Shown here in pieces: positions 28,006 through 49,581 of a stretch of 64,000 bases of DNA (position 1 is its first letter; every line of letters begins with the position of its first letter). The notes under the pieces were generated by a model that did no database searches, was not told where the DNA came from, and was given only the letters and a program-made list of their open reading frames with translations. The translations under genes were made by a program, and so were the position numbers. Origin of the DNA: Mycobacteriales bacterium (GTDB lineage: Bacteria > Actinomycetota > Actinomycetes > BP-191); assembly GCA_035714365.1 (NCBI GenBank), contig DASTMB010000014.1, positions 55,720 to 119,719 on the forward strand. The letters run 5' to 3'.

Positions 28006-31000
28006 CTAACGCAGGACGCGGAGCTTGACGAACGCGCCCGCGGTCGCGGCGAGCGCGACCCCCGCCAGCGCGGCCACGCCCGCCGGCACCGAGGTGCCAC
28101 CCGCCGCCGGGGGCACCGGGGCGAGCGTCGGCACGACGCCGACCGTCTCCGCGCCGCCCGCGATGCCGAGGGTCCCGGCCTTCGCCGGCGCCGCGGCGGC
28201 GCGTACGCCACCCTTGGCCGCGTACACCTGGAGCTCCGCGATCGTGACGTTCGACGCCTGCGGCGCCTGGCGGCAGTCCGAGTTGTTCGCCGGGTCGGCG
28301 TCCTGGTCGCCCAGGAACGCCTTGGTGCCGGTGCACTGGTTGGTGAGCACCCGGATCCGGACGTGCGACGCCTTGACCGGCGCGAACCGGAACTCGCGGA
28401 AGTTCAGGTCCGGCACGCGCGGCCGCGGGCGGTGGCCCGGGAACGCGTCGGCCTTCGACACGTACACCTGGCGGAAGTGCTTGCCGTCGGTGCTGACGTC
28501 GATCGCGAACTGGCGCAGCGTCGAGAACCGGCTCTGCGCCTGGTCGGCCTTCTCCTCGCCGTTGTTCTCCCGGACCGGCCGGTGCATCGCCGAGACGGTG
28601 ACCCGGTCGACGGTCCAGACGCCGCCGGTGAGGTCGACGGTGACGCCGCGGTTCTTGATCGCCTTCGCCGCCGCGGTCGGGTCGGTCTGCTTGCCGGCGA
28701 CGTACGGCGACTGGCCGAAGAACGCCCAGTCGGTCGACTCGGTGTCGTCCACGAGGTCGGTGAGGTACCGGCCCTCGCCGCGCGCGATCGCGCCGTTGTA
28801 GCGCGACGCGAGGTTGCGCGGCAGGCGGACCGTCACGGTGCCGCTCGTCCCGTCGCGGAACGAGTACGCCACGCGGTGCAGGCCGTAGCCCTGGCCGCGG
28901 ACGACGAACTCGTACCGGCCGCCGGCGAGCTGCGCCACGTCCTTGACGTCCTTCGACGGCAGCGTGTCGGCGATCGGCGTGACGCGGGCCTCGAACCGGC
29001 CGACGTAGATCGACGCGCGGACCGGCGCGCCGGTCGCGTCGTCGACGAACCGGAAGCGGACCGTCGCCGGCCGGCGGTACGGCGAGACGAAGCTCGGCGT
29101 CGGCTGCGGGTCGTCCGCGTTCGCCGAGTCGGCGCCCTTGCCCATGCCGCGGTGCGCGAACACCTGCCACATGCCGGCCAGGTCACGGCCGCCGAAGCGG
29201 AGCTTGTCCGCCGCGAGCATCGCGTCGCGGGCGTCGAGCATCGACACGTCCGCCGTCATCAGCAGGAACGAGTCGAACATGAGCTGCACCCAGCGGCGGT
29301 TGCCGGGGCAGGCGTCGGCCGCGAGCTGGCCGCTCGCGCAGCGCACCTGGAGGGTGCGGTTCGACGACGGGTAGCGGGAGTCGTACGCCCGCATGAACCA
29401 CTTGCGCAGCTCCCACTGGACGCCGTTCCAGATCTCGCCGTCGGCGTGGACCTCGGCGCCGGTGGTGTCGAACGCGTAGTCGCCGTAGTTCAGCGGGTTG
29501 CGGTCGAGGTTGAAGTCGCGGATGCCGTCGAGCTTATCGCCGGTGACGTACGCGCCGACGGTGCCCTTCCCCTCGCCGCTCTTACCGGCGTAGCCGTACG
29601 CGTTGAGGAACTCGAGGGCGACCAGGTCGCTCCACGACTCGCCCATCGCGCCGCCCTGCTCGCCGCCGATGCCGGCGTCCGGGCCGCCGACCATGCGGTT
29701 GCTGATCGCGTGCGTGTACTCGTGGCCGATGACCGACATGTCGTAGTCGCCGTCGGTGCAGGCGGCGTAGAACGACGCCGGGATCGGCTGCCACAGGTAC
29801 ATGTTGCTGATCGGCGCGATGCCGTCGTTGAGGGTGAGCTGGTTGGCGTTGTCGCGGCCGCCGAACGTCGGCGCGCCGCCGCCGTTGACCGCGCCGGCCT
29901 GCGCGTCGCCGATCTGCGGGTCGCCCTCGTACTGCGGCGACGTGTTGCCGAAGTTCGAGAGCTGGTGGTTGTAGTTCTTCTCGGTGTAGCCGAGGTGGTA
30001 CGCGAAGTCGTGCATCCGGTTGTGCATCGCGAACAGGTTCGCGGTGGCCGCGTCCACGTCGACGCGCTGCGGCGACACGAACGACGACGGCGCGCAGCCC
30101 TTGCCGGGCTGGCCCGGGGTGGTCGAGGTGCGCCACTGGTCGGTCCACGGGAACGCGTAGTCGCGGCCCGGCGACACCGGCGAGTACTGCTCCGCCGGGG
30201 TGATCGCGCCGATCGCGAGGTCGGCCGGGTCCGGGGCCGGGTTGGCCGCGCCCTCACCGGGCGAGAGCCACGACGACGCGGAGCGCGCGTTGTTGCCGAA
30301 GGTCGTGAACGTCGGCTGGAGCGTGTGCGGGTCGACGTCCCACGGCTGGCGCGACGCCAGGGTCGCGAACGACATGGCGCAGTCGTTGAGCGGCTTGGTG
30401 GTGCTGACCGTCGGCTTCGCGTCCCAGCAGCCGGTGACGCGGGTGTCCTTGCTGCTGCCGAGGAGCGGGTTCGCCGGGAAGATCTTCCACTTCGCCGGGT
30501 AGCTGAACGGGCTGGCCGCCGGGCCGTCGTAGACGCCGTAGACGCCGGCGTAGGACGCGGGGCCGACGCCGCCGTCGAACGCGCAGACCTGGACGGCGTA
30601 CTTGCCGGCCGGGGCGCCGCCCATGGGCGCGTAGTGCGCCTCCTCCGGGCCGTCCACGAGGTCGCCGCGGGCGACCATCGTCTTGCCGCGGAAGATCTTG
30701 ACGACGGTGTCGACGCCGGCCGGCGCCGGGTCGGTCGTGACGACGGCCGCGACGATCGCCGACGGCGGGTCGGTCACCGTGAACGGGTGCAGCGGGCCGC
30801 AGCCGCCCTTCTTGAACGTGCCGGTGAACGCGTTGCCGCCGGGGACGCCGATGCCGCCGGCGGTGCCGGCGGTGCCGCTGCCGAGGCCGTCCAGGCCGTC
30901 GATGCTCGGGCCGGCCATGCCGTCGGCCGCCTGCTGGACGCGGTTCTGGCGGAACAGCACCTTGCCGGTGATCGCGTCGACGAACGACGTGTAGCCGGTG

Positions 31001-31809
31001 AGCTCGCCGTCCTTGTTGTTCGCGACGATCGTCTCGTAGGCGGGGCGGACGCCGTCGGTGCGGGTCGCGAACGCCACCAGGCGCGCGCGCTGCGGCAGCG
31101 TGAAGCCCGGCACCGCGAACACGTCGAAGCCGGTGTGCTCGAGGCCGCGGGCGACGACGTTCGCCAGCGTGAGGCTCTTCAGGCCGGTGTCGGCGGCGGC
31201 GGCGAGCCACGCCTCGGCGGGGCCGATCTTCGGCTGCCCGGCGAGGGTGCCGGAGCCGACCGCCGAGGAGGTGACGAGCGCGATCCGGCCGTCGCGGATC
31301 GCGACCATGATCAGGCCGTCGTTGGCCGACATCAGGCCGCCGAACCGCTGGCGGAACAGCACCGCGTGCGCGGGCGTGCCGGTCAGCGTGGCGTCGTTGA
31401 GCAGCTCGAGGTTGTCGACGTCGGCGTCGGTGAGGCGGAACAGCGCCTGGTGGCGCTTGATCCAGGCGCGGGCGGCGACCTTCGGCTCGCCGGTGAGGCC
31501 GGAGTCGACCCAGCCGGCCGGGTCGGCGGCCTGCAGCACCTGCGGCGTGCCGAACTCGTTCCAGCGGGCGGTGACGCCCTTGAGCGACCGCAGGTCGCGC
31601 AGCGCGGCGGCAGTCGGCAGCCACTTCGTGCCGCCGCGGCTGTCGAAGTCGGCCAGCGCGTCGTGGTCGGAGAGCGTGAGGCCGGTGCGGGACTCGTGGT
31701 CGCCGACGGCGCGGAACGGCGCCGCGGTCGTCGCGGGCGCACCCGCGGCGGCCGCCGACGCGGCGAGGCTCGTGGCGAGGAGGCCGGCGAGCGCGTAGCG
31801 AAGCTTCAC
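28006..31809 (-). CDS. Secreted M36 (fungalysin-like) zinc metallopeptidase with propeptide and a C-terminal discoidin/F5-8-type-C-like domain
   Basis: GTG start with GGGAGA RBS. Signal peptide. HEXXH '[10 protein letters not shown]'. '[11 protein letters not shown]'. Confidence 0.8.
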
Positions 31810-31982
31810 TGGTGGTGTCTCCCGGGGATGGCGGTACCGGGCCGCGCCCAGGGACGGGCGTGGTCTGGGGTGGTGCTGTTCCGACACGTTCGGGGCCGGA
31901 CGTCGGGTTCCTGCGTCGCCTCGGGAAGGTGCCCGCTTTGTGACGAAAAGTTCTCGCGGCGGCCCCGCGTAGCATCGTCCGC

Positions 31983-32438
31983 GTGGTGGAGATCGGGCGG
32001 CCGGCACCGGAGTTCGCGCTGAAGGACCAGAACAACCAGGTCGTCTCGCTGGCGGACTTCCGCGGTGAGAAGGACGTCGTGCTGATCTTCTACCCGTACG
32101 CGTTCACCCGCGTCTGCGAGGGCGAGCTCTGCGCGATCCGCGACGACCTGGCGTCGTTCCAGAACGACCGGGTGCAGGTGCTCACCGTGTCCGTCGACAC
32201 GCCGTTCGCGCACAAGGTGTGGGCGGAGCGGGAGGGGTTCGACTTCCCGATGCTGTCCGACTTCTGGCCGCACGGGGAGGTGTCGCGGGCATACGGCTGC
32301 TTCGACGAGAAGCGCGGCTGCTCGACCCGGGGCACGTACGTCGTCGACCGGTCCGGCGTCCTGCGCTGGCAGGTCGTCAACGCGATCCCGGACGCGCGCG
32401 ACCAGGACGCGTACCTGCGGGTGCTCGCGGGGCTGTAG
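31983..32438 (+). CDS. Peroxiredoxin (AhpC/TSA family, Bcp/AhpE-like)
   Basis: 'FYPYAFTRVCEGELCA' peroxidatic Cys motif. Confidence 0.8.
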   Translation: MVEIGRPAPEFALKDQNNQVVSLADFRGEKDVVLIFYPYAFTRVCEGELCAIRDDLASFQNDRVQVLTVSVDTPFAHKVWAEREGFDFPMLSDFWPHGEVSRAYGCFDEKRGCSTRGTYVVDRSGVLRWQVVNAIPDARDQDAYLRVLAGL

Positions 32439-34068: not shown

Positions 34069-34173
34069 GGGTCGTGTGTAGCGCACCCCTGTGACAAGGA
34101 CGAACGGGTTTCCGGGATTCCCGCGCGGCGGCCTCCGGCGGCGTGCGCGCCGGTACGCTCGGACCGGCAACCC

Positions 34174-34249
34174 GGGCGCGTAGCTCAGCGGAACGAGCAC
34201 TCGGCTTACACCCGAGCGGTCGCAGGTTCGACCCCTGCCGCGCCCACCA
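34174..34249 (+). tRNA. tRNA-Val (anticodon TAC), including the encoded CCA
   Basis: Cloverleaf folded by hand: acceptor GGGCGCG/CGCGCCC, D arm GCTC/GAGC, anticodon stem CTCGG/CCGAG with loop CTTACAC, T arm GCAGG-TTCGACC-CCTGC. Confidence 0.85.
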
Positions 34250-34820
34250 CGCACGCGGTAACTGCGCCTACCTCTACTTGCGTTGCCGCGCTCAGGACCA
34301 GGTGGGCAATATCGCTACCTAAATAGCGCTTTAGAGCCGCTCGCCACGGATGCGAGGCAGGCGCGATCGCCCTGGAGTGCTTGTACGGTTGCTGCGTTCC
34401 GGCCCGAGCCGTTACGGCTTTGAACTGAGCGTCAGGACGGCGTGCTCGTTGCGGCGCCTGGAAGAAGCACTCCTCCAGCACGTCTGACGACTGTTGACGC
34501 GGACCGTAGCTGCCTGGTCGTGGCGGGGACGCGCACTCTTCCTCCCATCGAAGGAACGACGTCAGAGACGATGCGCCTCGCATTCGGTACAGATCTCGCA
34601 GGTCTGCAGGCTGAGCGACAGCCGGCCGCCCTACATGAGCGGTGGTCCCTAGGGGCCAACGGCGAGGCTACGGGTGACGTGTATCGGTGTGTTGAACGCG
34701 GTCCCAACCTAGGTCTCGGCTACTTGGACAACAGGCGCGCGCAGGCAGCACCCCGGCCGTACACTGTGTGTGCCCCATGAAGGATCGGTCTAAGCCGAGG
34801 AGAAAGATGGGCGGGGGACA

Positions 34821-37800
34821 ATGGAAGGTGCGTTCATCCTCGCGCGCGGCGACGAGCTCAGCCGCTTTCGGTCGTTGCTGGACGAGGTGCTGGAGAGCGC
34901 CCGGCATCCGTCGTTGACGAGCAGCAGTTACCTGGTCGTGATCCACGGTCTCGGGGGGATCGGCAAGACTGAGCTGTGGAAGCGCTACTGCGGAATCACT
35001 CGGGGTGACCTCGAGGACGACCTCCGCTTCCGCAGTAGGTTCACCCTCGCCGAGCTGGACTGGGAGATTGATCGCGAACGCAACCCGGGGGACTATTCGG
35101 CGACGGGACCCACTCTGGTGCGTGCGCTCAACGCGCTCTACCAGACCTTGGCCGCGGCTATGTCGTCCAAGAACCACCAGGGGCACGCGGAGAAGGCTTT
35201 CAAGCGATATCGGGAGCTCGCAGCGCAGCAGATTACCGGTCTACCGCGCGCAAATGATCCTCAGGGCTCGGCGCTGCAGACTGCGATCGAGTCGCTGGCG
35301 GACGTGGTGGGACCCGTCGACCCGACGCCCATGCGCGCCGCGGCGAAGAGTACCAAGGCTCTCGCCGCCATGGTCGGTGCCTTCGATACCGAACGCCGGC
35401 GCCGCAGGGGGGCCATGAACAGTGCCGACCTTGAGGCGGTGGCGCGCCCGGAACGGGCACTCACCACTGCGTTTGTCGCCGGCCTTCGTGACCTGACCCG
35501 CCATATCCCACCGATCGTGATCGCGCTGGACACGGCGGAGATCCTGGGCGACGCGCGAATCCCGCTGTTCGACGTGATCAACAGCCAGATCCCGCAGGTG
35601 GTCTGGGTACTGGCGATGCGGCTGGCCGGTACCGACAGTCAGGACGATTCGGTCGCTACCCGCTACCTGCGCGAAATGCCCTCCTCCCATCTGCGGGTCA
35701 TCGTGCCATCTCGGTTCAACGTTCCGGATATCGCGGAATACCTACACCGTCGCCTTGGCTACGCAGCCTCGGCGCCGGTCACTCCATCTGCAGTCCTCGC
35801 GCTTACCCAGGGCATCCCGCTCGCGGTACGGCTGCTGGCCGACCTGCTCGGGCGAGGAGCCGATCCGGTGGAAGCGCTGAAGGCGGTGTCGGACGATGGC
35901 GAGGTATCGACGGTCGTCACCAGCCTGGCCCGCCGCTATCTCGTCCACATTGCCGATCAACCCGACGCGCACGAGGACCTCCAGCGCATTTATGGCCTGG
36001 CACTGCTGCGCGGCGAGCGTGCTGATCCAGAATTGCTGGCCGCACTGTGGGGCGTGCCGCCATCGGATCTCGCCGTCGTGACAAGCCGGTTGATTCACAG
36101 GCACGATTTCGTTCGCAGCCGCGGTATGGAGCTACACCAGGACGTCCGGGATACGATCCGCGCCTACCTGCTCAACCCCGAGCGGCGAGCCGAGGTACAG
36201 GCCGCGAACAGGCGCGCAGTCGGTGTCCTGCGAGCTCGCACCGGGGCGCTCGGCCCAGTGACGATTGAAGAACAACTGGCCAGCGACGACTGGTGTACGG
36301 CGGCGCTCAACCTCCTCTGGCACACCCTGTGGGTCGATAGCCGAGAGGGGGTTCGCCTCCTTGCCCACCTGCTCCCCGCGTCGTATGTGCTCCGCCCGCA
36401 ATTTGCCCTCGCGTTACTCCAGGTCGCCGGCGAGTTCGGGCCGGTATGCACGGCGGAACTGCGCGAAGTGGTGGGCGGACTGCGATTGCTGATGCCGAGC
36501 TCGCCGTTCGTGATGGCGATCGGGACCGCACTGCGCCAGGCTCGCCAGCAGGGCGCATCCGACGCGATCCTCGACCGCGATCCTACCCAGGCCGCTGTAG
36601 CCTGGCTCGAAGCCGGAAGCGCCCTCCCGGAACCCGTGCTCGGCACGGATGTACCGCCAGGCACCCTGATCCCACTGCTGGACCTGTTGCGTCCGCGCCG
36701 GATCGAGGACAGGGCGGACTTGGACCGGTTGCTACTCCAGGCGGAGGCAGTCGACGCCGCGCTGCGGGTGGAGCCGGCTAGACATCCCCGGTTAATAGAG
36801 GCCGCCGCAAACGCAGCAGCTGAGCTGATGTGGTCGTACTACGAGAAGAAGGACTACGAGCGTGCCGCTCGGAGCGGCCACCTTGCGCTTCGACACGAGA
36901 CCGCCGACGTTGTTCGGTGGCACCGCTACTACCGGGTACTCTCTGCATCCGACGACCGAAACGGTGCACTGGCTGCGGCGGACCGGTGCGTTGCGCTCGA
37001 CCCGACGAGTCCGGTCAACCACCACAACCTCGGTGTCGCGCTGCAGGCGCTCGGCCGGCACGAGGAGGCGGTCACCCCGTTCCGGACTGCGGTCGATCTG
37101 GATTCCTCCTCGGCGCGCCGGCTCGCTCTTGCGCGGTGTCTCTTCGCCTGTGGACGGTTCGCGGAGGTGGTCAGCCTGTGCACCGAGGTTCTCGCGACTG
37201 AGGAGATTGCCGAGGCGCGGGTGCTCCGAGGTAACGCCCACGCCAGGTTGGGTCAGGACAACGAAGCGATCGACGACTACCAGGTAGCGGTCACGGGGGA
37301 AACGCCGTCCATTGCGGCGCTCAACAACCTCTATATTGCCCTGGCGCGCTCGGGTCGGCTGGAGGAGGCGCTAGCTGCGATCGACCGTGCGGTTGCGCTC
37401 GACCGCGCATCAGGCACCCACCAGGCGAACCGCGGCGAATGCCTGCTGCTGCTTAGTCGCCACGAGGAAGCCACGGCTGCCCTTCGCCATGCAATCGAAG
37501 ACGAACAGGACCACTTGGAGGCCCGGGTTCTGCTGGCCCTCATGTTGTGGACCACGGCGCCTGAAGCGGCAGTCGCGCTGTGCGAGCAGGCACTGCGCAG
37601 TCAAGGAGAGATGAACTCGCCGTTCCGCGCGGCCGAGCTGCGCGCTATTGCGAAGCTACTGCTCGGGGATGAAGCCGCCGCGGAACAAATTCTGCGCGAC
37701 GCTTCTGCGCGCCGGCTCCGGAGCGACTGGTACCAGGAACCGGTCTACGAGTTGCTTCGCTCATCAGGTGTCGCGGGAGTTGACCGGCTAATCGCGGTGT

Positions 37801-37835
37801 GGCGGGACGGAGAGTCTCCGGCGGTGCCGCTGTGA
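34821..37835 (+). CDS. STAND-type P-loop NTPase (NB-ARC-like, Walker A 'GLGGIGKTE') with a C-terminal TPR repeat array. No recognisable DNA-binding domain.
   Basis: 1004-aa ORF in lower-GC DNA immediately downstream of the tRNA. TPR-like 34-aa periodicity in the last ~300 aa. Confidence 0.8.
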   Translation: MEGAFILARGDELSRFRSLLDEVLESARHPSLTSSSYLVVIHGLGGIGKTELWKRYCGITRGDLEDDLRFRSRFTLAELDWEIDRERNPGDYSATGPTLVRALNALYQTLAAAMSSKNHQGHAEKAFKRYRELAAQQITGLPRANDPQGSALQTAIESLADVVGPVDPTPMRAAAKSTKALAAMVGAFDTERRRRRGAMNSADLEAVARPERALTTAFVAGLRDLTRHIPPIVIALDTAEILGDARIPLFDVINSQIPQVVWVLAMRLAGTDSQDDSVATRYLREMPSSHLRVIVPSRFNVPDIAEYLHRRLGYAASAPVTPSAVLALTQGIPLAVRLLADLLGRGADPVEALKAVSDDGEVSTVVTSLARRYLVHIADQPDAHEDLQRIYGLALLRGERADPELLAALWGVPPSDLAVVTSRLIHRHDFVRSRGMELHQDVRDTIRAYLLNPERRAEVQAANRRAVGVLRARTGALGPVTIEEQLASDDWCTAALNLLWHTLWVDSREGVRLLAHLLPASYVLRPQFALALLQVAGEFGPVCTAELREVVGGLRLLMPSSPFVMAIGTALRQARQQGASDAILDRDPTQAAVAWLEAGSALPEPVLGTDVPPGTLIPLLDLLRPRRIEDRADLDRLLLQAEAVDAALRVEPARHPRLIEAAANAAAELMWSYYEKKDYERAARSGHLALRHETADVVRWHRYYRVLSASDDRNGALAAADRCVALDPTSPVNHHNLGVALQALGRHEEAVTPFRTAVDLDSSSARRLALARCLFACGRFAEVVSLCTEVLATEEIAEARVLRGNAHARLGQDNEAIDDYQVAVTGETPSIAALNNLYIALARSGRLEEALAAIDRAVALDRASGTHQANRGECLLLLSRHEEATAALRHAIEDEQDHLEARVLLALMLWTTAPEAAVALCEQALRSQGEMNSPFRAAELRAIAKLLLGDEAAAEQILRDASARRLRSDWYQEPVYELLRSSGVAGVDRLIAVWRDGESPAVPL

Positions 37836-38185
37836 TCAAGTTGGACGTAGAGCTCCTCAAGCGCGCCCAGCTTGCCGAACTCCCACCGGCGTTCGTCAAC
37901 GTCATCTTGCGATCGACCTACGAGGAACTTGAGATGCGGGTCGGTGCGCGGCTGGCCGCACGGATGTCGGACGCACAGTTCGACGAATTCGAGACATTTA
38001 TAGACAATGACGACGACTCTGGAGCCCTCGCCTGGTTGGAAGCCAACTTCCCAGACTACCGTGAGATAGTAGCTGCAGAGTTCGACCGGCTGGTGGACGA
38101 GTTAGGTGCGGTCAGCCAGGAGGTCCGAGATATGGCGTTCGCATTGCTGCCCCCGTCCGACAGTCACGCGCGTGCCTTGTGGTAA
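37832..38185 (+). CDS. Small acidic hypothetical protein (117 aa), translationally coupled to the STAND NTPase by a GTGA overlap
   Basis: Start overlaps the upstream stop. No recognisable domain. Confidence 0.5.
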   Translation: MIKLDVELLKRAQLAELPPAFVNVILRSTYEELEMRVGARLAARMSDAQFDEFETFIDNDDDSGALAWLEANFPDYREIVAAEFDRLVDELGAVSQEVRDMAFALLPPSDSHARALW

Positions 38186-38423
38186 CCAGCACTCCTCGGA
38201 CAGGGCGGCGCCGGGTCGCGGCCTGTGCGTAGACCGACGCGGCCGTAGCCTCACGAGCCCTTCCGGAACAGCGTGGAGGAGGTCGACTCGGCGTAATTCC
38301 ACAATCGAACTGCCCGGTGCTCGACCGCAGCTCGTCCACGGCTGATACGTGTCCGGACTGTCCAGGAAGGCCATGTTGCGGCACCATGGCGGCTCCCCGC
38401 ACACCACCCTCGAAGGAGCGCAC

Positions 38424-38606
38424 ATGCCCGTCCGCCGCACGCTGTCCCTCAAGCGCGAGGTGCTCCAGGAGCTGACCGACGGTGACCTCCAGGTCATCGG
38501 CGGCGCCGGCCCGGACACCAAGGAGACGCTCTACAGCTGCCTGGCCTTCCAGAGCTGCCGGATCGTCAACTGCGGTGCCCTCGAGACGGCGATCTGCCCC
38601 GTCTGA
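38424..38606 (+). CDS. Precursor-like peptide 1 (60 aa). Double-glycine-type leader 'LSLKREVLQELTDGDLQVIGG', then a 4-Cys core 'AGPDTKETLYSCLAFQSCRIVNCGALETAICPV'.
   Basis: GAAGGAG RBS. Conserved leader shared with two paralogs downstream. Strong hairpin immediately 3'. Confidence 0.6.
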   Translation: MPVRRTLSLKREVLQELTDGDLQVIGGAGPDTKETLYSCLAFQSCRIVNCGALETAICPV

Positions 38607-38616
38607 CGCACCCGGA

Positions 38617-38664
38617 CGAACGGGCCCCGGTCCGGCGCGCACCGACGCGCCGCCGGGGCCCGTT
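38617..38664 (+). terminator. Compound hairpin: 13-bp perfect stem gaacgggccccgg/ccggggcccgttc enclosing an inner stem cggcgcg/cgcgccg
   Basis: Direct reading, 11 nt after the stop of peptide 1. Confidence 0.6.
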
Positions 38665-38697
38665 CGCGTTCCCGGCCGCGGCGGTAGCGTCTCCGCC

Positions 38698-39207
38698 GTG
38701 GAGGTCGCGGAGGCGCTGGAGGTCCTGTCCCGCACGCCGGGGGCGCTGCGCGCGCTGCTCGGCGGGCTGCCGGACGCCTGGCTGCGGTGCGGCGGCGCGG
38801 ACGACTGGGGTCCGGCCGAGGTGCTCGCGCACCTGGTCGAGGGGGAGCTGACCGACTGGCTGCCGCGGCTGCGCACGATCCTCGCCCACGGCACGGAGCG
38901 GGCGTTCGCGCCGTTCGACCGCACGACGGTGCCGGCGGTCGGCGGCGACCCGCTGGAACGCTTCGCCGGCCTGCGCGCGGCGAACGTCGCGGCCGTGCGC
39001 GATCTCGGCCCGCTCGACCTCGACGCGCGTGGCGTCCACCCCGAGCTGGGCGAGGTCACGCTCGGCGAGCTGCTGGCGACGTGGGCGGTCCACGACCTGG
39101 CGCACGTCGCGCAGGTGGCCGAGGCGATGGCCCGGAGCCGGCGCGACGAGGTCGGCCCGTGGCGGGCATACCTGCCCGTGCTGGACCGCGGTCCCGCCAC
39201 CGACTGA
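38698..39207 (+). CDS. DinB_2/DinB-family four-helix-bundle metalloenzyme-like protein (family of mycothiol/bacillithiol transferases)
   Basis: 'AHLVEGE...W' and 'WAVHDLAHVAQ' His-containing helices. The start is uncertain (GTG 38698). Confidence 0.55.
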   Translation: MEVAEALEVLSRTPGALRALLGGLPDAWLRCGGADDWGPAEVLAHLVEGELTDWLPRLRTILAHGTERAFAPFDRTTVPAVGGDPLERFAGLRAANVAAVRDLGPLDLDARGVHPELGEVTLGELLATWAVHDLAHVAQVAEAMARSRRDEVGPWRAYLPVLDRGPATD

Positions 39208-39293
39208 CGCCGCTCCCGCGGCGCGCGGGTCTGTCGCCGTTGCCCCTGGTGGTGCAGGATGTCGCCGACGTCCCCCGCCCCGCAGGAGTCCTG

Positions 39294-39467
39294 ATGCGTC
39301 GCACCCTCTGCCTCAAGCGCGAGGCCCTCGCCGAGCTCGGCACCGCCGACCTGGTTGGCATCGGCGGCGCCGGGGGCGCAACCGGCTTCAGCTGCCTCGA
39401 CTACGTGAGCTGCTACCCGTGGGACTGCCTGCCCCAGACGCTGGTCTGCGTCGAGGGCGCCCGGTGA
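39294..39467 (+). CDS. Precursor-like peptide 2 (57 aa). Leader 'LCLKREALAELGTADLVGIGG', core 'AGGATGFSCLDYVSCYPWDCLPQTLVCVEGAR'.
   Basis: GCAGGAG RBS. Paralog of peptide 1. Confidence 0.55.
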   Translation: MRRTLCLKREALAELGTADLVGIGGAGGATGFSCLDYVSCYPWDCLPQTLVCVEGAR

Positions 39468-39637
39468 AGCGCCGCCTGGTGCTCCGGCGCGAGGCGCTGG
39501 CCGAGGTCACGCCCGACGACCTGCGCGCCGTCGGCGGCGCGGCGACGCTGGCGGGCGCCTGCGGCGCGCTGACGGTGTTCGTGCAGGGCTGCGTCTCGGA
39601 CCCGCGGTTCTGCAACTACGTCACGGACCTCTGCTAG
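39464..39637 (+). CDS. Precursor-like peptide 3 (57 aa). Leader 'LVLRREALAEVTPDDLRAVGG', core 'AATLAGACGALTVFVQGCVSDPRFCNYVTDLC'.
   Basis: GTGA overlap with peptide 2. Paralog. Confidence 0.5.
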   Translation: MKRRLVLRREALAEVTPDDLRAVGGAATLAGACGALTVFVQGCVSDPRFCNYVTDLC

Positions 39638-39641
39638 CCGC

Positions 39642-41030
39642 TCACCGGACGGCGGTGAGGTGGCCCATCACCAGCTCGTCGCCGAGCGCGCTGTCGACGA
39701 ACGCGCCCCACACGCTGCCGTCCGGTGCCAGCGCCACGTCGATGAAGTCGAGCACGCCGTCGTCGCACCGTCCCGGCCCGCACGTGCCGTGGACGAACGC
39801 CGCGTCGTCGCCGCGGGTCACCGGCCCGGACCAGATCAACGGCTTCCGGTCGAGCGGCCGCTGTACCAGCCCGAGGTAGCCGGTGAACGTCGTGTCGGCG
39901 TACGAGCCGGTCCACGGCGCCCGGGGCGAGTTGGTGGAGCCCATGTAGGCGATGGCGAGCCGGCCGCGGGAGTCGAGGTCGAGCGACGGCCCCCACGCCT
40001 CGCGCAGCCCCGGCGGCGCGACGCGCAGGGGAGCGCCGAACGTCTGCCCGCCGTCGCGGGACACGGCGAGGTACGGCAGCCGGTCCTTCGCCATCCAGAG
40101 GTAGAACACGTTCCCCTTGGCGTCGGCGGCGACGGCGGCCTCGTGGTCGCTCTGGCCGCTGCCGGGCGCGACGAGGCCGAAGCCGCCGCTGACGGAGGTG
40201 TTCATGCCGTTCTTCGCGACCTGGGTGCGCGTCCACGTGACGCCCTCGTCGCGGGAGACGGCGAGCCACGGCTGGCCGCACCAGCCGCGCGGGACGTAGA
40301 GGGCGCCGTCGCCGCCGACCCAGATGGGCCCGTTGTCGCCGTTGCAGTGGCCGGGGACGCCGGCGTCGCCGGAGCCCTCGCCCACGCCGTACGGGCTGGG
40401 GTCGTTGAACGCGAACGTCCCGGTCGGCGCCCACGTCAGGCCGCCGTCGTTCGAGCGGGCGCAGCCGGTCGCGAACGAGTAGCCGTTGTAGCCCATGGTC
40501 TGCGAGCAGTTGTAGACGACGTTGGGGTACCCGACGGCGGGGACGGTGGTGGCCGGGCCGGCGGCGATGGTCTGGTGGTCGGACTGGTTGCAGGCGGCGG
40601 GCGCGTGCGTCCATGTCTCGCCGCGGTCGTCGCTCCACGACAGGAGCTGGCAGGTGCCGGCGAGGTCGGACTTGTAGACGCGCGAGGTGGCGTTGTCCAC
40701 GTACAGGTACGGGTCGAGCGTGGTGGCGTGCCCGTCGAGCGACAGGCGGGACCAGTGGCGGCCGCCGTCGGTGGAGCGGGCGACCTGCGCCTGCACGTCC
40801 GACCAGATGGTGCCGTCCTTGGCGATGCCGATGTTCGGCTCCCCGGCGTTGCGGAAGCCGGTGCGGAACGTCTCGACCCGCGGCGGCGTGCCGGTGGTCC
40901 GCGCGGGGGCGCCGCCCGGGTAGAACGCCGTGGCGCGCGCGCTGCCGGCGGCGTCGGACGCGCCGCCGAGCGCGGCGCAGGCGAGGGCACCGGCGGCGAG
41001 CGCGGTGGCGGCACGGGCGCGGGATCGCAT
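39642..41030 (-). CDS. Secreted BNR/Asp-box repeat protein (sialidase/glycosyl-hydrolase-like beta-propeller)
   Basis: Signal peptide. Repeated 'S.DGG.TW' Asp-box motifs (STDGGRHW, SDDRGETW, SNDGGLTW, SRDEGVTW, SRDGGQTF). Confidence 0.7.
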   Translation of the reverse strand: MRSRARAATALAAGALACAALGGASDAAGSARATAFYPGGAPARTTGTPPRVETFRTGFRNAGEPNIGIAKDGTIWSDVQAQVARSTDGGRHWSRLSLDGHATTLDPYLYVDNATSRVYKSDLAGTCQLLSWSDDRGETWTHAPAACNQSDHQTIAAGPATTVPAVGYPNVVYNCSQTMGYNGYSFATGCARSNDGGLTWAPTGTFAFNDPSPYGVGEGSGDAGVPGHCNGDNGPIWVGGDGALYVPRGWCGQPWLAVSRDEGVTWTRTQVAKNGMNTSVSGGFGLVAPGSGQSDHEAAVAADAKGNVFYLWMAKDRLPYLAVSRDGGQTFGAPLRVAPPGLREAWGPSLDLDSRGRLAIAYMGSTNSPRAPWTGSYADTTFTGYLGLVQRPLDRKPLIWSGPVTRGDDAAFVHGTCGPGRCDDGVLDFIDVALAPDGSVWGAFVDSALGDELVMGHLTAVR

Positions 41031-41081
41031 GGGTACGGCGTTCGGCGCGGCGGGCGGCGATCCCTGCGTAGCATCCGGCGG

Positions 41082-42191
41082 GTGGCACGGGTCGGGGACT
41101 GGGTGGCGGCGCTGGAGGCGCTGTACGACCCGTCGTGGGCGGAGGACTGGGACGCCGTCGGCCTGGTCGCCGGCGACCCGGACGCGCCGGCGGACGAGGC
41201 GGTGTTCGCGATCGACCCGGTCGCGGCGACGGTGGACGAGGCGGTCGCGCGCGGCGCGAAGCTGCTCGTCACGCACCACCCGTTGCTGCTGCGCGCGGTC
41301 CACGGCGTGCCCGCGACCGACTATAAGGGGCGGCTGGTCGACCGGCTGGTCCGCGAGGGCATCGCCCTCTACGTCGCGCACACCAACGCCGACGTCGCCT
41401 CGCCCGGCGTCTCCGACGTGCTCGCCGGGACGCTCGGCGTCCGGGACGCGCTGCCGCTCGCGCCCGGCCCGCCCGACGACGCCGCGAAGATCGTCGTCTA
41501 CGTCCCGCCGGACGCGACCGACCGCGTGGTCGACGCGCTGAGCGCCGCCGGCGCCGGGCAGATCGGCGGGTACGCGCGGTGCGCGTGGTGGACCGAGGGG
41601 ACGGGGACGTTCGAGCCGGGTCCCGGCACCCACCCGGCCGTCGGCGAGCCGGGGGAGCGGACCGAGACGCCCGAACGCCGCGTGGAGCTGGTGGTCCCGC
41701 ACGCGCGGGTCCCGGCGGCGGTGCGCGCGCTGCTGGCGGCGCACCCGTACGAGGAGCCGGCGTACGACGTCGTCCCGGTGCTGCTCCCGCACGACCGCGG
41801 CGCGGGCCGCGTCGGGGAGCTGGCGGAGCCGACGACGCTGGGGGAGTTCGCCGCGCTGGTGGCGCGGGCGCTGCCCACGACGGCGCAGCCGGTGCGGGTC
41901 GCGGGCGACGCGGCGGCGCCGGTGCGCCGCGTCGCGGTCTGCGGCGGCGGGGGCGACGACCTCATCGACGCCGCCCGCCGCGCCGGCGCCGACGTCTACG
42001 TCACCGCCGACCTGCGCCACCACCCCGTCTCGGAGGCGCGCGAGCGTGGCCTGGCGCTCATCGACGCCGGCCACTGGGCGACGGAGTGGCCGTGGCTGGC
42101 CGACGCGGCCGAGCGGGTGACCCGTAGGGTGGACGGCGTACGCGCCCACGTCTCCACGATCGTCACCGACCCCTGGAGCCTCCTCGCGTGA
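41082..42191 (+). CDS. Nif3-family dinuclear metal centre protein (YqfO/GTP cyclohydrolase I type 2 homologue)
   Basis: 'LLVTHHPLLL' and 'LIDAGHWATE' motifs. Confidence 0.75.
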   Translation: MARVGDWVAALEALYDPSWAEDWDAVGLVAGDPDAPADEAVFAIDPVAATVDEAVARGAKLLVTHHPLLLRAVHGVPATDYKGRLVDRLVREGIALYVAHTNADVASPGVSDVLAGTLGVRDALPLAPGPPDDAAKIVVYVPPDATDRVVDALSAAGAGQIGGYARCAWWTEGTGTFEPGPGTHPAVGEPGERTETPERRVELVVPHARVPAAVRALLAAHPYEEPAYDVVPVLLPHDRGAGRVGELAEPTTLGEFAALVARALPTTAQPVRVAGDAAAPVRRVAVCGGGGDDLIDAARRAGADVYVTADLRHHPVSEARERGLALIDAGHWATEWPWLADAAERVTRRVDGVRAHVSTIVTDPWSLLA

Positions 42192-42931
42192 AAGCACCGC
42201 CCGCCGCCCAGCTCCGCCTGCTCGACCTGCAGGAGCTCGACACCGCGCTCGACCGCCTCGCGCACCGGCGCCGCACGCTGCCCGAGCTGGCCGCGATCGA
42301 GGCCGCCGAGGCGCGACTGACCGAGCTGCGCGACGCCGTCATCGGCGCCGAGACCGAGCTCTCCGACGCCGACCGCGAGCAGCGCAAGGTCGAGAACGAC
42401 GTCGACCTCGTCCGCACCCGCATGACCCGCGACCAGCAGCGCCTCGACAGCGGCAACGTCTCCAGCGCCAAGGAGCTGGAGAACCTCCAGCACGAGCTCG
42501 GCACGCTCGCCAAGCGGCAGGCCGACCTCGAGGAGGTCGTCCTCGAGCACATGGAACGCCGCGAGGAGATCGAGTCGCGGCTGACCGCATTGCAGGCCGA
42601 ACGCGCCCGCGTCACCGCCGACCTGGAGGGCGCGGGGGCGCGGCGGGACGCGGCGTTCGCGGAGATCGACGCGGAGGCGGCGGCGCGTTCGACGGAACGC
42701 TCGTCGGTCGCGGCGGAGCTGCCGGCCGACCTGCTCGCGCTGTACGAGAAGGTCCGCGCGTCCTCCGGCGGCCAGGGCGCCGCGGCGCTGCACCGCGGCC
42801 AGTGCCAGGGCTGCCACCTGTCGTTGCCGCCGAACGACCTGGCGGCGTTCCGGGCGGCGCCGGAGGACGAGGTGCTGCGCTGCGAGGAGTGCCGGCGCAT
42901 CCTCGTGCGCCGTCCCGACAGCGGGCTGTAG
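42188..42931 (+). CDS. C4-type zinc-ribbon / coiled-coil protein (DUF164-like), the usual partner of Nif3
   Basis: Coiled-coil body. C-terminal 'CQGCHLSLPP...CEECRRIL'. Confidence 0.7.
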   Translation: MKAPPAAQLRLLDLQELDTALDRLAHRRRTLPELAAIEAAEARLTELRDAVIGAETELSDADREQRKVENDVDLVRTRMTRDQQRLDSGNVSSAKELENLQHELGTLAKRQADLEEVVLEHMERREEIESRLTALQAERARVTADLEGAGARRDAAFAEIDAEAAARSTERSSVAAELPADLLALYEKVRASSGGQGAAALHRGQCQGCHLSLPPNDLAAFRAAPEDEVLRCEECRRILVRRPDSGL

Positions 42932-44077: not shown

Positions 44078-44089
44078 CTGTCTGGTCAC

Positions 44090-46070: not shown

Positions 46071-46080
46071 GATCGGCTCG

Positions 46081-46477: not shown

Positions 46478-46582
46478 GCCCCACCTCTCCGGACCGTGTT
46501 CGGAGAGGCCGTTTCCGCAGGTCAGAGGCCCTTTCGCGGGTCCGCCGTCATGTCGGCCCGTTGCCTCCTGTAAGGCTGAGTA

Positions 46583-47385: not shown

Positions 47386-47401
47386 ACGGCGCTCCTGCAT
47401 C

Positions 47402-49564: not shown

Positions 49565-49581
49565 ATGACGACCCTAGAGAC

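What the first reader, a model, noticed from the sequence alone, without database searches (positions are those of the whole stretch)
34174..38185. Low-GC insertion after tRNA-Val carrying a STAND NTPase-TPR protein and a coupled small acidic protein
Immediately 3' of tRNA-Val(TAC) the composition drops, and roughly 570 bp of non-coding DNA precede the STAND gene. A 1004-aa P-loop NB-ARC-like ATPase follows, with C-terminal TPRs but no SARP or HTH DNA-binding domain. A 117-aa acidic protein is fused to it by a GTGA overlap. This is the hallmark architecture of Avs/STAND antiphage sensors or signal-transduction ATPases acquired horizontally at a tRNA site. No integrase or obvious direct repeat of the tRNA 3' end was found by eye.
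Basis: partly seen in the sequence, partly recalled or inferred. Interest (0 to 1): 0.6.

Follow-up and report, generated by a model that had tools for sequence, protein, structure and literature searches.

The report
Horizontally acquired STAND–DUF5663 gene pair
A foreign 4-kb DNA segment next to a tRNA-Val gene carries a rare NLR-like ATPase switch with no killing or DNA-binding domain, always co-encoded with a small uncharacterised helical protein (DUF5663); it may be an undescribed two-part bacterial immune sensor, but this is unproven.

Summary
tRNA-Val(TAC) ends at 34249. GC then falls from about 0.75 to 0.656, the lowest value of any 4-kb stretch in the window. GC3 of the two genes is 0.77 and 0.73, against 0.91–0.98 in the flanking genes.

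The 1004-aa protein is a true STAND NTPase. It has Walker A, Walker B, GxP and MHD-like motifs, and its AlphaFold model matches Apaf-1, RdrA, Avs3 and Avs5. A TPR arm follows. There is no effector, SARP or HTH domain, and no PADLOC hit.

The 117-aa acidic protein is DUF5663, joined by a GTGA overlap.

New findings:
- All seven other members of the closest STAND subclade with a readable 3' end also carry an overlapping DUF5663 gene, each in an unrelated neighbourhood.
- An 80%-identical copy sits at a different locus, and both genes are under purifying selection.
- Elsewhere, DUF5663 is coupled to a SIR2–P-loop protein and to DUF87/HerA-like ATPases.

No integrase or att repeat was found. No close relatives exist to show an empty site.

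Verdict: this is a mobile, uncharacterised two-gene STAND module. It is plausibly a conflict or defence sensor (about 0.45). It is not a member of Avs, AfsR or MalT.

The parts
34174..34249 (+). tRNA-Val(TAC), with CCA encoded. It forms the left border of the low-GC segment.
   Evidence: ARAGORN; Rfam RF00005, 64.6 bits. GC drops immediately 3' of it.
34250..34820 (.). 571-bp low-GC spacer (GC about 0.64) with no detectable gene, RNA family, promoter consensus or integrase remnant.
   Evidence: Flat GC by codon phase. Its ORFs have no significant Pfam match (best E=0.041, below cut-off). No Rfam match at E<=1 and no sigma-70-like site. This spacer is not a conserved part of the cassette: in L007 and L118 the STAND gene starts 42-67 nt after the upstream gene.
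34821..37835 (+). Effector-less STAND NTPase, 1004 aa, 110 kDa. Domain order is NBD, HD1, WHD, HD2, TPR arm, then a family-specific C-terminal cap.
   Evidence: ORF and translation. GC3 0.77. Family alignments A1 and A4. AF2 model of residues 1-650, pLDDT 83.4. Foldseek against PDB gives Apaf-1 at 1.4e-5, then RdrA, Avs3, PAB2304, EfAvs5, NLRP9/7, NRC4 and Sr35.
34947..34970 (+). Walker A motif GLGGIGKT (residues 43-50).
   Evidence: Coordinates. G43, G45, G46, G48 and K49 are invariant or nearly so in 43-46 homologues.
35073..35498 (+). Helical insertion of about 140 aa in the nucleotide-binding domain (residues about 85-226). It lies between strand beta-2 and the Walker B strand.
   Evidence: AF2 secondary structure shows strands E75-80 and E232-237 with helices 81-226 between them; pLDDT is 45-69 over residues 140-200. 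The AAA_16 profile match spans 224 residues for 134 profile positions. Conserved positions D80, W81, G96, P97, F127 and R131.
35517..35540 (+). Walker B motif VIALDTAE (residues 233-240). D237, T238 and E240 are invariant. The sensor-1-like R267 follows strand beta-4 (nt 35607-35630).
   Evidence: The strand positions come from the AF2 model.
35811..35828 (+). GxP motif GIPLAV (residues 331-336) in helical domain HD1.
   Evidence: P333, L334 and A335 are invariant and G331 nearly invariant. The motif sits at the start of helix 333-344 in the model.
36132..36152 (+). MHD-like motif LHQDVRD (residues 438-444) in the winged-helix domain, just after the beta-wing.
   Evidence: H439 is invariant and R443 nearly invariant; the family consensus is RLHDDVRDTLR. 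The hairpin at about 431-438 and helix 440-450 are seen in the model.
36798..37550 (+). TPR sensor arm (residues about 660-910).
   Evidence: Pfam TPR_1 at 3.5e-14, TPR_2 at 9.8e-14 and others. PDB consensus-TPR proteins match at 1e-33. Length varies among homologues from 936 to 1506 aa, through TPR number.
37551..37832 (+). Family-specific C-terminal cap (residues 911-1004), with motifs F/CRxxELRAxA...LG...AE and YELL.
   Evidence: Conserved in all members of the DUF5663-linked subclade, including the L123 and L124 fragments.
37832..38185 (+). DUF5663 protein: 117 aa, pI 4.26, predicted to form six helices. It is translationally coupled to the STAND gene by a GTGA overlap.
   Evidence: Pfam PF18908, 1e-19, 71.3 bits against a cut-off of 23.7. 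The invariant MIKLD N-terminus fixes the start. AF2 pLDDT 85.6. No fold match in PDB or BFVD. dN/dS 0.155 against the copy in L124.
38186..38423 (.). Right junction. GC and GC3 return to host values, and the first native-composition gene starts at 38424.
   Evidence: Homology with the independent cassette copy L124 ends at window position 38158, and the downstream gene there is different. A stable hairpin is predicted just after the stop codon, but it has no T-run and no shuffle control was run.

Best explanation
The segment 34250-38400 is a horizontally acquired two-gene cassette. It lies in a variable interval immediately 3' of tRNA-Val, inside an otherwise conserved Bcp / tRNA-Val / NIF3 neighbourhood.

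Gene 1 encodes a STAND (NLR-type) NTPase with an intact P-loop core, a TPR arm and no fused effector or DNA-binding domain. Gene 2 is translationally coupled to it and encodes a small acidic six-helix DUF5663 protein.

Shown here: the fold and motifs, the foreign composition, the conserved pairing, the mobility of the pair, and purifying selection on both genes.

Inferred mechanism:
1. The TPR arm binds a ligand, most probably a protein.
2. Binding releases autoinhibition and drives nucleotide exchange and oligomerisation, as in other STAND proteins.
3. Because the protein has no effector of its own, the signal passes through, or is gated by, the stoichiometrically co-made DUF5663 partner.

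The most likely biological role is sensing in a genetic conflict, that is, defence against phages or mobile elements. I put that role at about 0.45. I put the structural and evolutionary description at about 0.9.
For: Foreign origin:
- The segment has the lowest GC in the window (0.656 against a mean of 0.720). GC3 is 0.73-0.77 against 0.91-0.98 in flanking genes.
- The same pair is also lower in GC than its flanks in L007, L116 and L117.
- Bcp / tRNA-Val / NIF3 are 50-300 bp apart in several Actinomycetota (L014, L017, L038, L060). The tRNA-NIF3 gap is 1.8-8.8 kb in others.
- None of the 80 NIF3 loci (1.4 Mb) holds a family member or a DUF5663 gene.

STAND identity:
- Walker A, Walker B, R267, GxP and the LHD motif are invariant across 43-46 homologues.
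- The AF2 model has pLDDT 83. Top PDB folds are Apaf-1, RdrA, Avs3, PAB2304, EfAvs5, NLRPs, NRC4 and Sr35.

The pair is the functional unit:
- A DUF5663 gene overlaps the STAND stop by 4-17 nt in the window and in all seven other members of the closest subclade with a readable 3' end: L007 Actinoplanes, L009 Dactylosporangium, L116, L117, L118, L123 and L124. Neighbouring genes differ in every case.
- L124 is 80% identical in DNA, keeps the GTGA overlap, and has a different downstream gene.
- dN/dS is 0.155 for DUF5663 and at most 0.35 for the STAND C-terminus.

Conflict-system hints:
- The family is rare and patchy: about 50-63 clusters among 5.8 billion proteins, with at most 42% identity to this protein.
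- An integrase fragment lies beside the pair in L116.
- Elsewhere DUF5663 overlaps a SIR2_2 plus P-loop protein. That protein has weak PADLOC hits to LmuA, Dsr1 and ThsA (L120-L122).
- DUF5663 also follows DUF87/HerA-like ATPases on a Rhodococcus conjugative plasmid and on a metagenome contig.
Against: - The protein has no effector domain.
- There is no PADLOC hit for either protein at E<=0.1.
- No defence gene lies within 5 kb in this window, and none appeared among the Pfam-annotated neighbours of L007, L009, L116, L117 and L118. Only three unannotated neighbours were scanned against PADLOC. By the two criteria of Lee et al. 2026 (PMC13581612), the family would therefore not be scored as defence-associated on present data.
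- DUF5663 shows no catalytic, membrane or known toxic feature and has no fold match.
- DUF5663 is a large family (2477 clusters at 50% identity). Many of its members have long P/Q-rich tails, and one sampled member lies next to infB, fmt and def in a housekeeping-type context.
- A more distant branch of the STAND family (at most 34% identity) has no DUF5663 partner.
- No integrase or att repeat marks the insertion.
- No close relative of the host exists among the species representatives. The best NIF3 identity is 58%, so an empty site could not be shown.
- Physical interaction between the two proteins was not modelled or measured.
Confidence: 0.5

Rival explanations
1. This is a regulatory (housekeeping-type) signal-transduction STAND. 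On this view it is a MalT- or AfsR-like ligand-sensing ATPase that has lost, or never had, a DNA-binding domain. It would control a cellular process by binding or releasing the small DUF5663 protein. DUF5663 would then act on transcription, translation or another host machine. This would loosely resemble afsR, which has the small afsS gene downstream (recalled from memory, not tested here).
For: - The only NTPase profile that reaches its cut-off in homologues is AAA_16, the family that also covers MalT/LAL-type regulators. P0037 scores 35.8 bits and P0004 34.0 bits against a cut-off of 32.6.
- There is no effector domain, no PADLOC hit and no defence neighbour.
- DUF5663 is widespread. One sampled member lies next to infB, fmt and def.
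- Lee et al. 2026 find non-defence STAND clades interspersed with defence clades.
Against: - There is no HTH, SARP or LuxR domain.
- hhalign of the family profile against E. coli MalT aligns only the P-loop, with probability 9.9%.
- The module is rare, patchy, compositionally foreign and sits in unrelated neighbourhoods with no recurrent target genes. That is unusual for a regulator.
- The nearest DUF5663 relatives are coupled to SIR2-type and HerA/DUF87-type proteins.
Confidence: 0.3
2. The architecture and acquisition are as in the best explanation, but the roles are reversed. DUF5663 is not the output. It is a negative regulator or guarded bait that occupies the TPR arm or the NBD insertion and keeps the STAND protein off. 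Loss, modification or displacement of DUF5663 during infection would fire the STAND protein, which then acts through oligomerisation alone, for example by sequestering a host factor.
For: - Tight translational coupling is conserved in all eight loci. This ensures co-production, as in toxin-antitoxin-like pairs.
- DUF5663 is acidic, small and shows no enzymatic feature.
- It is under stronger purifying selection (dN/dS 0.155) than the STAND C-terminus (at most 0.35).
- Lee et al. 2026 report a STAND protein (Avs7) that incorporates an abundant host protein as a structural component (abstract).
Against: - There are no interaction data.
- No viral structural look-alike of DUF5663 exists in BFVD that would suggest a decoy.
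- An output mechanism for a STAND protein with no effector is unknown.
Confidence: 0.15
3. This is an inert remnant: the last surviving cargo of a decayed integrative element at tRNA-Val, with no present function.
For: - No integrase and no att repeat were found.
- A 571-bp gene-free, low-GC spacer lies between the tRNA and the first gene.
Against: - Both ORFs are intact and all catalytic motifs are preserved.
- dN/dS is 0.155 and at most 0.35 against an 80%-identical copy, with dS of 0.66-0.85.
- The pairing and overlap are conserved at 40-60% protein identity.
Confidence: 0.05
4. This is an ancestral core gene pair with atypical composition, not a horizontal acquisition.
For: No close relative was available to show an empty site.
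Against: - GC3 is 0.2 below that of the neighbours.
- Homologues are absent from 80 NIF3 loci of other bacteria.
- The family occurs in scattered actinomycete genera at only 36-43% identity, in unrelated contexts.
- An 80%-identical copy lies in a different context.
Confidence: 0.03

Closest known systems
Avs / AVAST antiviral STAND NTPases (for example Avs3, PDB 8dgc; EfAvs5, PDB 9jap)
   Same: Both have a central STAND NTPase with the same NBD-HD1-WHD fold (Foldseek E 7e-5 to 1e-4). Both have a large C-terminal alpha-helical TPR-type arm. Both show patchy, horizontally transferred distribution.
   Different: This protein has no fused effector (nuclease, SIR2, protease and so on). No PADLOC Avs model hits it. 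No defence-island context was found. It has an obligate small DUF5663 partner gene, and its NBD carries a helical insertion of about 140 aa.
RADAR (RdrA ATPase plus RdrB deaminase; PDB 8hr8)
   Same: Both are two-gene modules in which a large STAND-like ATPase has no effector of its own and a second gene supplies the partner. RdrA is the second-best fold match (E 3.5e-5).
   Different: The partner here is a 117-aa helical DUF5663 protein, not an adenosine deaminase. This protein has a TPR arm. There is no PADLOC RdrA hit.
Apaf-1 / plant NLR (NB-ARC, AP-ATPase clade)
   Same: Apaf-1 is the best fold match (3j2t, E 1.4e-5). GxP (GIPLA) and MHD-like (LHDDVRD) motifs occupy the canonical positions.
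   Different: The Pfam NB-ARC profile does not match beyond the P-loop. Walker B is hhhLDTxE rather than hhhDD. The sensor is TPR rather than WD40 or LRR. There is no CARD, TIR or CC domain.
AfsR (SARP-NB-ARC-TPR) and MalT/LAL regulators of actinomycetes and E. coli
   Same: Both combine a STAND NTPase with a TPR-like sensor and use a ligand-gated ATP switch. Homologues match AAA_16. A small gene follows afsR (afsS; recalled from memory).
   Different: This protein has no SARP or LuxR DNA-binding domain. The profile comparison with MalT aligns only the P-loop. The module is mobile, and its small partner is translationally coupled.
Effector-associated domains (EADs) and other small helical adaptor domains of NTPase conflict systems (Kaur et al. 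2020, PMC7159879)
   Same: Both involve a small all-alpha module encoded next to a large NTPase of a conflict-type system.
   Different: EADs work through two copies, one fused to the NTPase or VMAP component and one fused to the effector. DUF5663 here is standalone, and the DUF5663 profile finds no second copy in the STAND protein. No Death-fold match was found in PDB.

Membership tests
STAND NTPase superfamily | [quoted passage not shown] | tested here: met
   GLGGIGKT at residues 43-50 and VIALDTAE at 233-240. G43, G45, G46, G48, K49, D237, T238 and E240 are invariant across the 43-sequence alignment A2; in the 46-sequence A4, which adds N-terminally truncated fragments, the Walker A residues are nearly invariant. 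Coordinates.
STAND NTPase superfamily | An NBD followed by helical domain HD1 with a GxP motif, then a winged-helix domain with a conserved His | tested here: met
   GIPLA at 331-335 and LH439QDVRD at 438-444 are invariant or nearly so. The AF2 model places them in HD1 and after the WHD beta-wing. Foldseek hits Apaf-1, Avs3, Avs5, the NLRPs, NRC4 and Sr35 with probability 1.00.
STAND NTPase superfamily | A C-terminal repeat (sensor) domain | tested here: met
   TPR_1 and TPR_2 at E about 1e-14 over residues 660-910.
Pfam NB-ARC (PF00931) | A profile match above the gathering score | tested here: not met
   No hit for the query even at E<=10. Homologues match only about 20 residues of the P-loop (E 0.011-0.22).
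Pfam AAA_16 (PF13191) | A profile match above the gathering score (32.6 bits) | tested here: inconclusive
   The query scores 10.5 bits (E 0.84). Homologue P0037 scores 35.8 and P0004 scores 34.0, while P0006 at 31.0 is just below. The precomputed PF13191 tag appears on 13 of the 50 family members listed.
Avs (antiviral STAND) | An effector domain fused to the NTPase | tested here: not met
   The P-loop begins at residue 43. No non-TPR, non-NTPase Pfam or NCBIfam domain is present.
Avs (antiviral STAND) | A match to Avs or other defence STAND profiles | tested here: not met
   PADLOC-DB v2 gives 0 families at E<=0.1 for both proteins. Newer families (Avs7-21) are not in that library, so they were not tested.
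Avs (antiviral STAND) | Enrichment of known defence genes within about 5 kb (criterion of Lee et al. 2026) | tested here: not met
   The window neighbours are MFS, Bcp, DinB, BNR and NIF3. The Pfam-annotated neighbours in L007, L009, L116, L117 and L118 are metabolic or regulatory, and three unannotated neighbours have no PADLOC hit. The sample is only six loci. TmtA and a HamB-like gene lie 18-23 kb away in the window.
Avs (antiviral STAND) | Activation by a phage protein, and protection against phage | not testable with these tools
   This needs experiments.
AfsR / SARP-STAND regulators | An N-terminal SARP (Trans_reg_C plus BTAD) DNA-binding module | tested here: not met
   No Trans_reg_C hit. 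The BTAD hits in homologues fall inside the TPR arm (residues 743-840), not at the N-terminus.
MalT / LAL regulators | A C-terminal LuxR-type HTH, and specific NTPase similarity to MalT | tested here: not met
   No GerE/LuxR hit. hhalign of A1 against E. coli MalT aligns 49 P-loop columns with probability 9.9%. This is a weak test because the template was a single sequence.
RADAR | An RdrB adenosine deaminase partner and an RdrA profile match | tested here: not met
   The partner is DUF5663. There is no PADLOC RdrA or RdrB hit. Only fold-level similarity to RdrA was found.
DUF5663 (PF18908) | A profile match above the gathering score (23.7 bits) | tested here: met
   71.3 bits, E 1e-19, covering profile positions 1-83 of 84.
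tRNA-linked genomic island | Directly abuts the tRNA 3' end and has deviant composition | tested here: met
tRNA-linked genomic island | An integrase gene and a direct repeat of the tRNA 3' end at the far border | tested here: not met
   No repeat within 3 mismatches over 25 nt in the whole window. No repeat family involving the tRNA. No integrase-like ORF or remnant.
tRNA-linked genomic island | An empty site in related genomes | tested here: inconclusive
   No close relative is available; the best NIF3 identity is 58%. In distant Actinomycetota that keep Bcp / tRNA-Val / NIF3, the pair is absent and the interval varies from 50 bp to 8.8 kb.
Effector-associated domain (EAD) adaptors | The same small domain present both on the NTPase component and on the neighbouring effector | tested here: not met
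   The DUF5663 HMM hits only the small ORF, not the STAND protein, in any locus.

The most novel reading that the evidence does not exclude
DUF5663 may be a so-far unrecognised small subunit shared by several NTPase-centred conflict systems: the STAND-TPR family described here, SIR2-P-loop proteins and HerA/DUF87-type ATPases. On that reading, the STAND-DUF5663 pair would be a new two-component antiphage or anti-plasmid system of Actinomycetota. An effector-less NLR-like sensor would signal through, or be gated by, a separately encoded 12-kDa helical protein rather than a fused enzymatic effector.
Probability: 0.3. Interest if true: 0.7.

Novelty: new variant of a known kind. Interest (0 to 1): 0.5.

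Why it matters
STAND/NLR proteins are central pattern-recognition receptors in all domains of life. The bacterial ones with a known mechanism carry their own effector, or, as in RADAR, an obvious enzymatic partner.

This family has neither. Its only constant companion is a small domain of unknown function that no paper in the searched library mentions. The same domain also rides with SIR2-type and HerA-type proteins.

If the pair is an immune or conflict module, it would show a new way for an NLR-like switch to deliver its output. It would also give a first function to a family of about 2,500 sequence clusters. If it is a regulator, it would be a mobile STAND regulator without a DNA-binding domain.

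Either way, this is a compact two-gene unit that can be tested directly.

Tried and rejected
- att site: I searched for a direct repeat of the tRNA 3' end (25 nt, up to 3 mismatches, whole window) and ran a general repeat search over 34100-39000. Nothing was found.
- Integrase remnant: Pfam on all ORFs of the 571-bp spacer and the right junction gave no significant hit.
- RNA element or promoter in the spacer: Rfam at E<=1 found only the tRNA, plus an antisense artefact on the tRNA itself. There was no sigma-70-like site, and the only terminator-like site is on the opposite strand, inside the STAND gene.
- Known defence family: PADLOC gave no hit.
- Phage origin: PHROGs gave only a weak TPR hit. 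There were no relatives of either protein in IMG/VR viral contigs.
- Plasmid origin: the STAND protein is absent from PLSDB, and DUF5663 gave one Rhodococcus hit.
- Sequence relatives with solved structures: only TPR proteins matched the full protein, and only P-loop-level matches (E>=0.16) were found for the N-terminal profile.
- MalT relationship: hhalign probability was 9.9%.
- DUF5663 as a Death-fold or EAD adaptor: no Death, CARD or PYD hit among PDB folds, and no second copy in the STAND protein.
- DUF5663 as a mimic of a phage protein: no BFVD match.
- Fusion partners of DUF5663 that might reveal function: the long members checked carry only disordered P/Q/G-rich tails.
- A conserved small gene replacing DUF5663 in the distant STAND branch: none was found.
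- L001 as an independent locus: rejected, because it is 100% identical to window 37234-48185.

Full report
**1.

ARAGORN finds one tRNA in the window, tRNA-Val(TAC), at 34174-34249 on the + strand. Rfam confirms it.

GC in 500-nt windows is 0.74-0.82 upstream. It falls to 0.63-0.68 from 34250 to about 38250 and returns to 0.71-0.78 after that. The stretch 34250-38400 has GC 0.656. That is lower than all 515 other 4.15-kb windows of the sequence (mean 0.720, minimum 0.666, z = -2.5).

The host shows the extreme third-position bias of a high-GC actinomycete, with GC3 of 0.91-0.98 in five flanking genes. The two genes of the segment have GC3 of 0.77 and 0.73.

The 571 bp between the tRNA and the first gene show no coding phase. 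They also contain:
- no ORF with a significant Pfam match;
- no Rfam family at E<=1;
- no sigma-70-like site.

The large ORF (34821-37835, 1004 aa) and the small one (37832-38185, 117 aa) overlap in GTGA. The DUF5663 family begins with an invariant MIKLD, which fixes the GTG start and hence the overlap. The small protein is acidic, with pI 4.26.

**2. The large protein is a STAND NTPase, but a divergent one**

Pfam, NCBIfam and PDB sequence searches see only TPRs, at residues 660-910. No NB-ARC, NACHT, SARP or HTH domain is detected.

Two searches of 5.8 billion proteins return only about 50-63 relatives, none above 42% identity. They come from Actinoplanes, Dactylosporangium, Streptomyces, Amycolatopsis, Actinomadura, Iamia and from metagenomes.

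Alignment of 43-46 of these relatives shows the following invariant or nearly invariant features:
- Walker A: G43-LGGIGK49-T.
- Walker B: hhhL-D237-T238-x-E240.
- An arginine after strand beta-4 (R267).
- A GxP motif: G331-I-P-L-A335.
- An MHD-like motif: L-H439-(Q/D)-D-V-R443-D.

An AlphaFold2 model of residues 1-650 has pLDDT 83.4. It places these motifs where STAND proteins have them. The GxP motif opens a helix of HD1, and the His follows the beta-wing of a winged-helix domain.

Foldseek against the PDB returns, at probability 1.00: Apaf-1 (1.4e-5), RdrA of RADAR, Avs3, the archaeal ATPase PAB2304, EfAvs5, NLRP9/7, NRC4, Sr35 and NOD2. ORC/Cdc6 follow.

At the profile level only AAA_16 responds. 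It is below the cut-off in this protein (10.5 bits) and just above it in two homologues. A profile of the N-terminal 650 residues finds nothing in PDB sequences beyond the P-loop. hhalign against E. coli MalT also aligns only the P-loop, with probability 9.9%.

A family peculiarity is a helical insertion of about 140 residues between strand beta-2 and the Walker B strand.

The P-loop starts at residue 43, so there is no room for an N-terminal effector. After the TPRs comes a family-specific cap of about 95 residues.

**3. The small protein is DUF5663, and it is the constant partner**

The match is to Pfam PF18908, at 71.3 bits against a cut-off of 23.7. The model (pLDDT 85.6) is a six-helix bundle. 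It has no fold match in the PDB or in BFVD; the best E-values are about 3. No paper in the searched library contains the word DUF5663.

I looked up the genomic places of the closest STAND homologues. In every one with a readable 3' end, a DUF5663 gene overlaps the STAND stop codon by 4-17 nt:
- L007: Actinoplanes CP192102.
- L009: Dactylosporangium CP192030.
- L116, L117 and L118.
- L123: its upstream fragment aligns to the very end of the family, including the cap.
- L124.

Junction sequences are given. The neighbouring genes differ in every locus. They include GGT and MFS, GH16 and a methyltransferase, LysR and MarR with an integrase fragment, GntR and DnaB-N fragments, and a transketolase-like gene.

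L124 is 80% identical in DNA over the STAND 3' end and DUF5663, and it keeps GTGA. Homology stops 27 nt before the DUF5663 stop codon, after which a different gene follows. The transferable unit therefore ends right after DUF5663.

Nei-Gojobori estimates between the two copies give dN/dS of 0.155 for DUF5663. For the STAND C-terminus the value is at most 0.35, from an ungapped alignment that overestimates dN around one indel. dS is 0.66-0.85. Both genes are thus maintained by selection.

Pairwise identities of the STAND proteins and their DUF5663 partners correlate only moderately (r = 0.50 over 15 pairs).

The pair is also lower in GC than its flanks in L007, L116 and L117, though not in L009.

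A more distant branch of the STAND family, at 34% identity or less, was sampled from metagenome contigs. It has no DUF5663 gene and no conserved small downstream gene.

L001, which first looked like an independent copy, is 100% identical to window 37234-48185. It is not independent evidence.

**4. What DUF5663 does elsewhere**

An exhaustive profile search finds 2477 clusters (at 50% identity) with E<=1e-3. Many members consist of the N-terminal DUF5663 domain plus a long P/Q/G-rich tail with no other domain.

For the relatives nearest to the window's protein, the contexts I could read were these:
- A TPR/STAND family member (P0067, L123).
- A gene overlapping DUF5663 by 14 nt, seen in contigs from three samples (L120-L122). 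It encodes a SIR2_2 domain (8.8e-22; weak PADLOC hits to LmuA, Dsr1 and ThsA). A P-loop of mad8/HerA type lies about 650 residues further on.
- DUF87/HerA-like ATPases directly upstream, on the conjugative Rhodococcus ruber plasmid pYYL1.1 (L119; PADLOC mad8 at 1.9e-17) and on a JGI contig that also has an FtsK-like ATPase.
- A housekeeping-like infB / DUF5663 / fmt / def context in one case.

So four of five readable contexts put DUF5663 beside a large P-loop NTPase, and one of those carries a defence-type SIR2 domain. The sample is small and was chosen by similarity. It is a lead, not a statistic.

**5. Insertion site**

The host has no close relative among 185,579 species representatives. 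The neighbouring NIF3 protein reaches only 58% identity, to Actinomycetota MAGs, Kribbella, Jiangellaceae and Angustibacter.

The neighbourhood is nevertheless old. In L014, L017, L038 and L060, tRNA-Val(TAC) lies 50-300 bp upstream of NIF3. Bcp lies immediately upstream of the tRNA in several loci, including L017, L077 and L041. In other genomes the tRNA-NIF3 gap is 1.8-8.8 kb and is filled with genes of native composition.

In the window the gap is 6.9 kb. The low-GC pair comes first. It is followed by native-GC lineage-specific genes: three Cys-rich peptides, DinB_2 and a BNR protein. None of these has a homologue in the 80 loci.

No family member and no DUF5663 gene occurs in those 80 loci, which total 1.4 Mb.

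There is no integrase, no remnant of one and no att-type repeat. Acquisition is therefore well supported, but its mechanism is not.

**6. Mechanism and comparison with known systems**

Shown here:
- an intact STAND switch with a TPR arm;
- no effector or DNA-binding domain;
- a conserved, translationally coupled small partner;
- mobility of the pair;
- purifying selection on both genes.

Inferred from established STAND biology (Apaf-1, NLRs, Avs, MalT): ligand binding to the repeat arm releases autoinhibition and drives nucleotide-dependent oligomerisation.

Inferred from the missing effector and the coupling: DUF5663 is either the output or adaptor, or a brake or bait.

The defence reading is favoured by the patchy, mobile and compositionally foreign character of the pair, and by the company DUF5663 keeps. 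It fails both criteria that Lee et al. 2026 use to call a STAND clade defence-associated, namely a fused effector or defence genes within 5 kb. PADLOC is also silent. I therefore give the defence role about 0.45 and a regulatory role about 0.3.

Family by family:
- Avs: not a member, because there is no effector and no profile match.
- AfsR and MalT: not a member, because there is no DNA-binding domain and no specific similarity.
- RADAR: not a member, because there is no deaminase.
- EAD-type adaptors: DUF5663 does not qualify, because the STAND protein carries no second copy.

It is best described as a new variant within the STAND kind.

**7. Verdict**

This is a real and well-delimited feature. 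Interest is moderate (0.5). A specialist would not be astonished by another STAND module. However, an effector-less NLR-like sensor bound to an unstudied DUF that recurs with SIR2 and HerA-type proteins is a concrete, testable lead.

Noticed in passing
window 38424-38606 (+), 39294-39467 (+), 39464-39637 (+): Three paralogous small peptides (57-60 aa) have native GC3 of about 0.95. Each has a leader-like motif 'R.L.LKREALAEL...DL..VGG' followed by a core with four Cys residues. The second and third overlap in GTGA. A DinB_2 gene (38692-39207) lies between the first and second. They look like double-glycine-leader RiPP or bacteriocin precursors. They have no Pfam or NCBIfam hit and no homologue in 80 NIF3 loci.
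   Followed up: partly
window about 46000-64000: A second, larger low-GC stretch (GC 0.66-0.69) carries accessory and defence cargo:
- a DUF433 / DUF5615 (PIN-like) pair at 46739-47385;
- a NOV_C protein at 49582-50943 (-);
- several ORFs without any family;
- a full-length TmtA (Tiamat) match at 56045-60580 (PADLOC PDLC03968, 1465 bits);
- a HamB/PDC-M23B-like helicase at 61084-63999 (-) that reaches the window end.

Native-GC core genes separate this stretch from the STAND pair by 8-18 kb.
   Followed up: partly
L120 538-4246, L121 537-4202, L122 437-1694: A DUF5663 gene (149 aa) overlaps by 14 nt the start of a gene longer than 1091 aa. That gene has a SIR2_2 domain and, about 650 residues later, a mad8/HerA-like P-loop. 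The arrangement is seen in contigs from three samples. It may be a separate uncharacterised SIR2-NTPase module that uses the same small partner.
   Followed up: partly
L119 5589-8267 (Rhodococcus ruber plasmid pYYL1.1, NZ_CP024892.1) and the JGI 3300056388 contig: DUF5663 directly follows a DUF87/HerA-like ATPase (PADLOC mad8, 1.9e-17) on a conjugative plasmid. CYTH and NYN domain genes are nearby. On the metagenome contig the same arrangement sits next to an FtsK/SpoIIIE ATPase.
   Followed up: partly
L014, L017, L038, L060, L026, L033, L041, L023, L077 (upstream of position 10001 or the NIF3 match): The Bcp / tRNA-Val(TAC) / NIF3 linkage is conserved across distant Actinomycetota. The tRNA-NIF3 gap ranges from about 50 bp to 8.8 kb, so this interval is a recurrent site of gene gain. 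The content of the longer gaps was not annotated.
   Followed up: partly
window 37234 (= position 1 of JGI contig Ga0334944_000165, L001): The public 31-kb JGI contig of the same genome is 100% identical over 10,952 nt and begins inside the TPR region of the STAND gene. The assembly break could reflect TPR repeats or strain-level presence/absence of the cassette.
   Followed up: no
window 35073-35498 (STAND residues about 85-226): The helical insertion of about 140 residues in the nucleotide-binding domain is conserved in the family (D80, W81, G96, P97, F127, R131). It is modelled with low confidence in its middle (pLDDT 45-69). Its role is unknown. It could be a docking surface.
   Followed up: partly
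L116 8602-8850; L008 6319-7812; L117 3543-4720: Mobile-element traces lie near family members. There is a phage-integrase fragment 0.6 kb downstream of the pair in L116. A group II intron reverse transcriptase lies near the DUF5663-less homologue in L008. Two DnaB N-terminal-domain fragments lie upstream of the pair in L117.
   Followed up: no
window 34174-34247 (-): Rfam reports a sub-threshold 'Plastid-ycf2 5'UTR' match (34.1 bits against a gathering score of 65.7) antisense to the tRNA. This is almost certainly an artefact of tRNA-like structure.
   Followed up: no
window 28006-32007 (-): A very large (1333-aa) ORF with a fungalysin M36 metallopeptidase domain (2.2e-61) lies between aceE-like and bcp genes. 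Such peptidases are uncommon in bacteria.
   Followed up: no
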